A stretch of 9,055 nt of DNA, from the NCBI RefSeq assembly GCF_006345805.1, contig NW_021828172.1, forward strand, positions 1-9,055. The letters are read 5' to 3'. The position numbers were made by a program, and so were the translations under genes. Within the stretch, counting starts at the first letter, position 1. Each line of letters begins with the position of its first letter. Origin of the DNA: Octopus sinensis (lineage: Eukaryota). The notes under the pieces are model-generated. The model saw nothing but the letters and a program-made list of their open reading frames with translations, was not told where the DNA came from and ran no database searches. Positions 3,641 to 4,713 of this stretch are shown here, in pieces.

Positions 3641-4173
3641 TCAGCTTTATGCTGATGCCACAACTGTCTTCCTCGAAATGATCAATGGTAAGGGGAACGA
3701 GAAGGCACCAATGGCTGTTCATCCCTACACAGGCAGCCAAACGACTAGCAAACGATACGCGTTCGTGATTGATGGTTGGTGTAAGTGTGGAACATCTAAT
3801 AACAACAGACCTGTAATACAGAATACTTCGTTCACATCCTGTCAGTGACTTCGTTGTGGCTTTCCTCACTCCTCCCACGCTCCACCGCCCCTCGATTGTA
3901 ATATTTGACGTCAATCGTCCATTGTTTTATCATGGATAAATCTCTTTTGTTTGGTCCATTCTTGGAAGTATATTTTATGCGTATGTGGCAAACCAAAATG
4001 CAGAATGACTCGGAAGCAGACGTTGAGACGAGAGGGCAAGTCACTGAGAATTTCGCGAAGAACGAACAAAGAATTTTCTCTAACAACCAACCAATTGTTC
4101 TATATTTAAGAGATGAGGAATTACGTACATTATTTACATTCAGAACTCGGAATCTTCGGGTTAGTATGCCCAC

Positions 4174-4244
4174 GGGCATATGGCGTAGTTTTTAAGAGCG
4201 CGGACTACTAACCCCAAGATTCCGAGTTCGATTCCAGGCAGTAA

Positions 4245-4248
<4 letters not shown>
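4174..4248 (+). promoter_or_regulatory. tRNA-derived SINE head with Pol III internal promoter boxes (not a functional tRNA)
   Basis: A-box-like TGGCGTAGTT at 4181, 7-nt loop CTACTAA at 4205-4211, B box GAGTTCGATTCC at 4224-4235. The acceptor and anticodon stems pair poorly. Confidence 0.75.
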
Positions 4249-4280
<32 letters not shown>

Positions 4281-4299
4281 CAACAACAACAACAATAAC
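4249..4299. repeat. (AAT)9(AAC)6 compound microsatellite inside the element
   Basis: Directly visible. Confidence 0.95.
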
Positions 4300-4346
4300 A
4301 TCGAAAAATACCTTAGGAATGAGAACCCAGGTTCGAAATTTCCCAA

Positions 4347-4392
4347 GACACGTGATGAAGGCTGGAGGGTATATCAGCCGAAACGTTGTGTT
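4347..4392 (+). ncRNA. Minimal type I hammerhead ribozyme, C3->G core variant
   Basis: Stem I GACAC (4347-4351)/GUGUU (4388-4392); gUGAUGA (4352-4358); extra A; stem II GGCUG (4360-4364)/CAGCC (4375-4379); GAAAC (4380-4384); GUU triplet (4385-4387). Helix III is reduced to the palindrome AACGUU. Confidence 0.75.
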
Positions 4393-4713
4393 AACAACAA
4401 TCAAGATGAGGACAAATATCCGTTAAATGTAAATAATGTAAATAATGAAACAACCAATTGATTGTTTAACTAGTACATTCACCAAATGCTTGATTTGTTT
4501 GTTGTTTAGATATTTAACCAATTGACTAACAATAAAGAAGTCATCTTGAACTAGTGCGTGTGTTATTGTTATTGGCTTACTGACCTTCCCAAGATACAAC
4601 AAGAATCACAATTTTTTCATAAATATTCACGCATCCAGTTTATCTGAGCTATTGTAATTATCACTGTCCTGATAGAAATATAAGCAGGTTAAAACAGATT
4701 TAACATCGTAAAT

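What the first reader, a model, noticed from the sequence alone, without database searches (positions are those of the whole stretch)
4098..4460. tRNA-headed SINE-like element carrying a hammerhead ribozyme: candidate Pol III-driven passenger of Penelope-like retrotransposons
Seen: one ~280-nt sense unit joins a tRNA-derived head (A/B boxes), a microsatellite linker and a minimal type I hammerhead fold. A second near-identical copy lies 3 kb away on the other strand, so it is a dispersed repeat, and copy 1 has a candidate 10-bp TSD (caaccaattg). Known: minimal type I hammerheads with a palindromic, vestigial helix III are characteristic of Penelope-like element pLTRs and metazoan retrozymes, whereas SINEs normally borrow LINE 3' ends; schistosome Sm-alpha is the nearest precedent I know. 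Inference: this is a non-coding, Pol III-transcribed, self-cleaving retroelement mobilised by a Penelope-type RT/GIY-YIG enzyme. I cannot tell whether the family is already catalogued.
Basis: partly seen in the sequence, partly recalled or inferred. Interest (0 to 1): 0.85.

Follow-up and report, generated by a model that had tools for sequence, protein, structure and literature searches.

The report
tRNA-headed, Penelope-dependent SINE of octopus
This is one worn copy of a very abundant octopus jumping element that joins a tRNA-type promoter to the ribozyme-bearing end of a Penelope-like retrotransposon, so it is probably a short parasite that borrows Penelope enzymes instead of the LINE enzymes that such elements normally use.

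Summary
At 4174-4447 a tRNA-like head (A box at +8, B box at +53), a microsatellite and a minimal type I hammerhead are joined. Copy 1's ribozyme core is mutated (C3G); 96-98% of family depth has the intact C. The second copy has no head and is split by another insertion. This is the published insertion signature of Penelope-like elements (PLEs). The family is high-copy (21,000-38,000 contigs per run) and occurs in Octopus records. Head and body are linked in independent copies, and three related families in another host's DNA have the same head + hammerhead + tail plan. Best reading (0.72): a Pol III-type SINE mobilised in trans by a PLE enzyme, from uncleaved RNA. Not shown: the autonomous partner, transcription, cleavage. 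Ten literature searches found no tRNA-headed PLE passenger, but Repbase, Dfam and two octopus SINE papers could not be seen.

The parts
4088..4097 (+). left target-site duplication (last G may belong to the tail end, so 9-10 bp)
   Evidence: flanks vary from 4097 outwards in 301-411 contigs per run
4098..4141 (-). inverted arm: element 3' end including the ~30-nt tail (4098-4127) that the main arm lacks
   Evidence: 94% to 7716-7763; alignment; tail contiguous with the body in P0004
4143..4173 (-). inverted arm, continued: two jumps into the head (reverse complement of 4206-4229, then of the head's first bases), giving a palindrome 4165-4180 at the head-to-head junction
   Evidence: (hairpin z = -7.7)
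4174..4248 (+). tRNA-derived head; A box 4181-4189, B box 4226-4234; T run at 4189-4193 is specific to this copy (4190 is G in 96-97% of family depth)
4249..4300 (+). (AAT)n(AAC)n linker
   Evidence: read as an Asn run between head and body in P0005
4347..4392 (+). minimal type I hammerhead: helix I 4347-4351/4388-4392, core from 4352 (C3G in this copy), extra A at 4359, helix II 4360-4365/4374-4379, no loop III, predicted cut 4387/4388
4393..4447 (+). 3' body ending in a duplicated 9-nt unit at the inferred inner start site of reverse transcription; 4404-4412 can pair with the tail
   Evidence: flanks vary from 4446/4447 outwards
4451..4460 (+). right target-site duplication
7157..7192 (-). 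copy 2, main arm, 3' piece (no tail)
7597..7702 (-). copy 2, main arm, 5'-truncated piece with hammerhead (A13U); no head, no microsatellite
7700..7759 (+). copy 2, inverted arm with tail; no TSD found for this copy

Best explanation
A non-autonomous Penelope-like retroelement built like a SINE. Shown from sequence: tRNA-derived head + linker + PLE-type terminal repeat (minimal hammerhead, stem-loop, optional tail), inserted as head-to-head twins with a short TSD, in very many copies. Inferred: RNA polymerase III starts at the head and makes a ~310-nt RNA. An RT/GIY-YIG protein of an autonomous PLE binds the 3' part, nicks both DNA strands at an AT-rich site, and primes one cDNA at the inner start (4447) and one at the tail end, about 30 nt further 3'. 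The two cDNAs run towards the RNA's 5' end and are joined head to head, often short or after template jumps. Full-length copies must come from uncleaved RNA; the hammerhead is probably silent as a monomer and is kept as part of the structure that the PLE protein recognises, or cleaves only in dimers or with protein help. Copy 1 is a dead copy (C3G; T run after the A box).
For: Architecture matches published PLE insertions: inverted 5' copy, optional 30-40 nt tail, junction palindrome, 8-9 bp TSD, terminal repeat sufficient in trans (passages of PMC8557442; PMC3846280); the tail lies between two RT start sites (PMC11167929). Both window copies show it; the family has sharp boundaries at 4097 and 4446/4447 in 4 of 4 runs. 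The hammerhead has the PLE min-HHR traits (PMC4209133); of the 12 conserved core positions none varies apart from CpG-type changes at G12 and this copy's C3G, while the free position 7 does (12-22% of depth); 4 of 11 pairs change on both sides across 8 sequences, covariation 0.315, reached by 4 of 500 shuffles. Head linkage: P0005, P0054 and P0029 read from head into body; four different joints bring the inverted 3' end next to the head start; head depth equals depth just past the linker (ratio 0.66-1.13). Three related families in G001 host-type DNA each have A box at +8, a B box, hammerhead and tail; A+B pairs occur in 12 of 2,268 background tiles.
Against: No autonomous PLE with a matching terminal repeat was found (all weak searches). 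No RNA evidence: the runs on record as RNA held 12% or less of the words and were unrelated metagenomes. No contig spanning the microsatellite was shown, because the tool skipped 4241-4307. Head depth is 29-45% of hammerhead depth, and 4 of 7 insertions in G001 have no head. A LINE-like 3' end at 7192-7596 also forms a head-to-head twin, so inversion alone is not PLE-specific in this genome. Lack of internal T4 terminators is not significant given base composition. ARAGORN and Rfam do not recognise head or ribozyme.
Confidence: 0.72

Rival explanations
1. Non-autonomous PLE, but transcribed by Pol II (terminal-repeat or read-through promoter); the tRNA-like head is a captured passenger without promoter role.
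For: PLE terminal repeats hold their own promoters and can carry unrelated DNA in trans. Sister-family copies occur in head-to-tail units of 38-43 codons in 16 of 57 records, which could be transcribed as tandems. No Pol III data here.
Against: In 4 of 4 families the longest copies begin at tRNA position 1, with invariant columns at tRNA positions 8, 10, 14, 54-56, 58 and 61. Twin junctions meet at the head's first bases.
Confidence: 0.1
2. Retrozyme-type cycle: hammerhead cleavage makes unit RNAs and circles that are the transposition template.
For: Core and helix II are conserved across families; two copies can form the intermolecular helix III (-32.8 versus 2 x -14.4 kcal/mol); tandems exist in the sister family; animal retrozymes are proposed to be non-autonomous PLE derivatives (preprint).
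Against: Copies run from head through the cut site to the tail, not from cut to cut; no start pile-up at 4388 among the rows shown and no depth step there (1,285 loose-end rows were not shown). Single min-HHRs showed no cleavage in vitro; cleavage was not needed for PLE insertion in vitro.
Confidence: 0.08
3. An ordinary LINE-mobilised SINE (CR1, L2 or RTE partner) that once captured a PLE end.
For: The main arms end in a short tandem 9-mer, as many LINE/SINE tails do (LINE habit from my own knowledge). A LINE-like end in this window also forms a twin. LINEs are abundant in octopus.
Against: The inverted arm holds 30 nt that lie beyond the main arm's end, so it cannot be a fold-back copy of the main arm. 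The same optional tail appears in the related families. No poly(A).
Confidence: 0.07
4. One-off chimera at this locus between a separate tRNA-SINE and a solo PLE end.
For: Copy 2 has no head; an earlier scan report reached this verdict for a look-alike in another genome (e1-7811937, unchecked).
Against: P0005, P0054, P0029, the joints, and three further headed families.
Confidence: 0.02

Closest known systems
Insertion units and pseudo-LTRs of endonuclease-positive Penelope-like elements (Penelope/Poseidon, Neptune; PMC8557442, PMC3846280, PMC11167929, PMC4209133)
   Same: Minimal hammerhead, inverted 5' partner, optional ~30-nt tail, junction palindrome, short TSD at an AT-rich site, frequent 5' truncation.
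   Different: No ORF; starts with a tRNA-derived A/B-box head; unit about 310 nt.
Schistosome Sm-alpha / Sj-alpha SINE-like repeats (seen only through a review, PMC6765202, and PMC8490949)
   Same: Short non-coding repeat, reported Pol III promoter followed by a type I hammerhead.
   Different: Those are described as tandem, processed by an active canonical hammerhead; here the copies are dispersed twins with a minimal hammerhead and a PLE tail. I did not compare sequences.
Animal non-LTR retrozymes (PMC7229834; preprint 10.64898/2026.07.22.740005)
   Same: Non-coding, type I hammerhead, proposed non-autonomous PLE derivatives.
   Different: Defined as tandem arrays giving circular RNAs; the preprint has 0 occurrences of tRNA, Pol III or octopus.
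tRNA-derived SINEs, including octopus OK/OR1/OR2 (Ohshima and Okada 1994, not read) and the octopus SINE 'Twin' (Albertin 2015; name recalled, paper not held)
   Same: tRNA head, non-coding, very high copy number, TSD.
   Different: 3' end is PLE-type, not LINE-type. OR1/OR2 are cited as CORE-SINEs; I did not test for a CORE domain. Identity with OK or Twin could not be tested; I put it near even odds that the family is already catalogued under such a name.
Helenus and Ajax (PMC10886601)
   Same: Small-RNA-derived sequence in a non-autonomous element of a class other than LINE-dependent SINEs.
   Different: Those are LTR elements; the paper has 0 occurrences of Penelope.

Membership tests
Non-autonomous Penelope-like element | Hammerhead of PLE min-HHR type in the terminal part | tested here: met
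   against traits; helix II is 6 bp here versus 7-8 bp (6 in Drosophila) in the paper
Non-autonomous Penelope-like element | Inverted, 5'-truncated partner arm upstream | tested here: met
   2 of 2 window copies; 3 of 7 G001 insertions clearly
Non-autonomous Penelope-like element | Optional 30-40 nt tail; two 3' boundaries | tested here: met
Non-autonomous Penelope-like element | Terminal repeat shared with an autonomous RT + GIY-YIG element | tested here: inconclusive
   none found; no octopus genome held
tRNA-derived SINE | A and B boxes at tRNA spacing at the 5' end | tested here: met
   spacing is 10-20 nt longer in the three related families
tRNA-derived SINE | Recognisable parent tRNA | tested here: inconclusive
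   no ARAGORN or Rfam call; tRNA-invariant columns kept (115)
tRNA-derived SINE | Dispersed, high copy, non-coding, TSD | tested here: met
tRNA-derived SINE | Transcribed by Pol III | not testable with these tools
   no RNA run of the host was offered
tRNA-derived SINE | LINE-derived 3' end or poly(A), LINE partner | tested here: inconclusive
   no poly(A); no LINE library to compare; 3' end is PLE-like
Non-LTR retrozyme | Tandem units running from ribozyme to ribozyme | tested here: not met
   window copies are single twins; tandems seen only in 16 of 57 sister-family records
Non-LTR retrozyme | Self-cleavage and circular RNA | not testable with these tools
   only DNA contigs were laid
Octopus SINEs OK / OR1 / OR2 / Twin | Sequence identity to the published consensus | not testable with these tools
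   papers and repeat libraries not held

The most novel reading that the evidence does not exclude
An undescribed class of SINEs that depend on Penelope-like enzymes rather than LINEs: tRNA head + minimal hammerhead + PLE tail. At least four families share the plan, the class is old enough to have diverged across hosts, and it is among the major repeats of octopus genomes, with the ribozyme core kept under selection in a single-unit Pol III transcript where cleavage would be self-defeating.
Probability: 0.5. Interest if true: 0.8.

Novelty: new variant of a known kind. Interest (0 to 1): 0.66.

Why it matters
SINEs are taught as LINE parasites. A Pol III-headed passenger of Penelope-like elements would add a third partnership, beside LINE-SINE and the tRNA-bearing LTR elements. 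It would also give a natural ~310-nt minimal substrate with thousands of insertions for two open questions: how PLEs form twin insertions with tails, and what their minimal hammerhead is for. In octopus, where SINEs make up 11.6% of the O. vulgaris assembly and most recently active SINE families are unclassified (893 of 900), it may reassign a sizeable part of the repeat landscape. Copies also supply the predicted N-termini of two octopus gene models.

Tried and rejected
No genome is held for the window. A pattern from the hammerhead found 0 matches in viral, metagenome and prokaryote contigs. Word-index protein searches with spurious frames found nothing, although the full scan found 69 hits, so those blanks are weak. 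A profile search of proteins of 350-2,000 residues gave 2 hits among 6,816 candidates, neither with an RT domain. Three decayed GIY-YIG remnants in G001 have no end matching these families. Rfam: no tRNA or hammerhead match in 6 searches. Folding z-scores of the single hammerhead and head are not significant. The body-tail stem is supported as a duplex for the window family (3 of 1,000 shuffles) but not by whole-segment folding of the related families (z 0.35 to 0.81). Absence of T4 runs is not significant. A hammerhead-like motif at 1221 fails the descriptor and the model. The atlas gave no named family for either peptide. Model R1 matches its own training sequences by construction.

Full report
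SETTING. No genome is held for the window. It is AT-rich, microsatellite-rich animal DNA without long ORFs. Spurious translations of the repeat under study are annotated in Octopus bimaculoides and O. sinensis records, so the family is an octopus repeat; no call names the window's own species.

OBSERVATION. The head has an A box at 4181 and a B box at 4226, tRNA positions 8 and 53 from 4174; this is the window's only A+B pair, with 0.034 expected per window. A minimal hammerhead descriptor (one core mismatch allowed) hits 4352 (+) and 7660 (-) and nothing in 300 resampled windows. Helix I is 5 bp, helix II 6 bp, with an extra A before G10.1-C11.1, a palindromic C-G in place of helix III, and the cut after GUU at 4387. 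These are the traits that Cervera and de la Pena list for PLE minimal hammerheads (PMC4209133; abstract, Results and Discussion read). Both window copies are damaged: C3G in copy 1, A13U in copy 2. C3G abolishes cleavage of a PLE hammerhead (PMC11167929, parts 1-2 of 4 read). ARAGORN and Rfam recognise neither head nor ribozyme. The 10-bp TSD is real.

Between the left TSD and the head lies a 76-nt inverted arm. Read on the minus strand it gives the head's first bases, a jump to 4206-4229, a jump to the 3' end, and 30 nt that the main arm lacks. Copy 2 has the same plan on the other strand: inverted arm with tail (7700-7759), main arm 5'-truncated at the equivalent of 4311, no head, no tail, split by a 405-bp fold-back insertion, no TSD found. 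An inverted 5' copy with an optional 30-40 nt tail is the described signature of PLE insertions (PMC8557442, passages). In rotifer PLEs the tail is 31 bp, TSDs are 8-9 bp, palindromes sit at the inverted junction, and the terminal repeats suffice to move unrelated DNA in trans (PMC3846280, passages). In vitro, the tail is the stretch between two RT start sites and the endonuclease prefers ATT; the TSD here ends in ATTG, which is a weak point. P0004 (O. bimaculoides) reads from body into tail without a break, so the tail is the natural 3' extension. The tail can pair with 4404-4412 (-14.2 kcal/mol; 3 of 1,000 shuffles as good), which would put the inner start in a loop; folding of the related families did not support this statistically.

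THE FAMILY. Of 24 runs listed, 15 hold half or more of the sampled words, under four organism codes. I laid 4 of them (X1, X2, X6, X4), all assembled contigs: 38,427, 31,983, 29,835 and 21,101 contigs fell on 4001-4540. X2 and X4 hold this locus's left flank without a difference, so they may be the source and are not independent. Depth over the hammerhead is 190,000-320,000 times single-copy depth in X2 and X4; the tool warns that this is no copy number, and dividing by 31 for contig overlap gives 6,000-10,000. Flanks become heterogeneous at 4097 (301-411 contigs per run) and at 4446/4447 (334-443 per run): two 3' boundaries. Position 4352 is C in 95.7-98.4% of depth, so the family core is intact. 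Variants of 5% or more inside the ribozyme are: position 7 (4356; A in 12-17%, C in up to 11%), loop II (4368), a helix I change that keeps a wobble pair (4349), and CpG-type changes at 4379/4380 and 4384/4385, which do hit G12 and the helix III pair. No pile-up of starts at 4388 was among the rows shown; 183 joints and 1,285 loose ends were not shown.

IS THE HEAD PART OF THE ELEMENT? could not bridge the microsatellite (4241-4307 skipped). Four other lines bear on it. (1) Depth over the B box is 0.66-1.13 of depth just past the linker, but only 0.29-0.45 of hammerhead depth, as 5' truncation would give. (2) Four different joints place the inverted 3' end next to the head start (4121 to 4165, 4126 to 4172, 4129 to 4165, 4445 to 4168; 1-2 contigs per run each; letters in between mostly unknown). 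(3) A full scan with the frame 4189-4458 gave 69 hits; by a crude motif sort 10 are of this family or close to it, 57 of a sister family, 2 other. P0005 reads B-box region, Asn run, body up to the hammerhead (80% identity); P0054 is a diverged copy with the same order; P0029 (O. bimaculoides dystrobrevin beta model) begins with the palindromic head start joined directly to the hammerhead. The other 7 of the 10 cover the body only and say nothing on the head. (4) A sister-family peptide found one locus in prokaryote genome records (none): low-GC DNA (0.31-0.48, against 0.61 next to it) inside G001, evidently from an animal host that no call names. There a model built from these ribozymes finds 9 sites in 7 insertions. 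Three insertions, of three different families (L001:4868-5217; L053:3853-4300; L053:18240-17711), begin with a head with A box at +8 and a B box (one mismatch in two of them under the strict pattern), about 200-220 nt before the hammerhead; two of them have an inverted arm with tail, one with a 12-bp TSD; one tail is 90% identical to the window's over 40 nt. The other 4 of 7 are truncated or decayed and headless. A+B pairs occur in 12 of 2,268 background tiles. Across the four heads the invariant columns include tRNA positions 8, 10, 14, 54-56, 58 and 61. Across 8 ribozyme sequences 86% of cells pair, 4 of 11 pairs change on both sides, and slid controls fall to 20-47%; the sequences are related and I chose the structure, so this is supportive, not a probability. 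In the sister family 28 of 57 records end with the tail and 29 without (crude; several of the 29 are cut by a stop), 16 are tandem and 6 show an inverted arm.

MECHANISM. Shown: anatomy, abundance, linkage, twin-and-tail insertions, conserved ribozyme fold. Inferred: Pol III transcription from the head; binding, nicking and double priming by an autonomous PLE protein; junction of the two cDNAs at or before the RNA's 5' end. Cleavage at 4387/4388 would separate promoter from RT start, so full-length copies need uncleaved RNA. This agrees with no activity of single minimal hammerheads and with insertion not needing cleavage. Why the core stays conserved is unexplained: protein recognition, protein-assisted or dimer cleavage as a brake, or repeated capture from autonomous elements.

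AGAINST. No autonomous partner was found. No RNA data. A stretch at 7192-7596 with 197-bp arms, whose frame ends like a CR1/L2-type LINE (the assignment is recalled, the atlas gave no name), also forms a head-to-head twin, so only the tail asymmetry and the hammerhead, not the inversion, point to PLEs. Missing T4 runs are explained by composition.

WHAT IS KNOWN. Ten full-text searches listed no paper describing a tRNA-headed PLE passenger or a hammerhead in an octopus SINE. Nearest are schistosome SINE-like repeats with a Pol III promoter and hammerhead (review PMC6765202 and PMC8490949, passages), retrozymes as non-autonomous PLE derivatives (PMC7229834, passages; preprint 10.64898/2026.07.22.740005, part 1 of 5 and passages) and non-autonomous Chlamys elements. 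Octopus and cephalopod repeat papers gave no hammerhead-SINE link in the passages seen (PMC13282606 with its supplement searched; PMC8967140; PMC9115989; PMC6962438, which counts 235 hammerhead matches in giant squid; PMC4758252 and PMC4824008; PMC10886601). Not seen: Albertin 2015 (I recall an abundant octopus SINE called Twin, which may be this family), Ohshima and Okada 1994, Lunse 2017, Ferbeyre 1998, Repbase, Dfam, SINEBase, the supplements of PMC4209133 and PMC8557442, and the preprint's supplements. Any of these may list the family.

VERDICT. It works like a PLE-mobilised SINE (0.72). It meets the testable PLE and SINE-head features, but membership in either is not closed without the partner element and transcription data. 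It is not a retrozyme by arrangement. New variant of a known kind; interest 0.66.

Noticed in passing
window 7192-7596: 197-bp arms, 99% complementary, 11-nt spacer, (TTAG)n/(TAAC)n outer ends, inserted inside copy 2. One arm reads like the C-terminus and 3' end of a CR1/L2-type LINE (assignment recalled), i.e. a LINE end in head-to-head twin form.
   Followed up: partly
window 679-947: Self-inverted repeat (71% over 277 nt), MITE-like.
   Followed up: no
window 3044-3600: Broken transposase-like remnant; weak DDE_3 match (E 0.056).
   Followed up: partly
window 8720-9015 (-): Looks like another SINE with a decayed tRNA-like head; family not tested.
   Followed up: no
window 1221-1250: Hammerhead-like core words that fail the descriptor and model R1.
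   Followed up: yes
P0029, P0073: The repeat forms the predicted N-terminus of O. bimaculoides dystrobrevin beta isoform X1 and of O. sinensis LOC115224785 isoform X2; exonisation or gene-model artefact.
   Followed up: no
G001 contigs C16 (from about 255,000), C52, C61; L049-L068: A bacterial genome record holds several hundred kb of animal-type, LINE-rich DNA, joined to bacterial DNA within contig C16 (GC 0.61 to 0.35): host contamination.
   Followed up: partly
L001:4868-4960, L053:4018-4100, L053:18071-17980: Heads of the three related families have 10-20 extra bases between the anticodon-arm region and the B box, as an unspliced pre-tRNA or a long variable arm would give.
   Followed up: no
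L048:1513-1830, L070, L071: Decayed GIY-YIG remnants of Penelope-like type next to (TA)n runs; ends do not match the headed families.
   Followed up: yes
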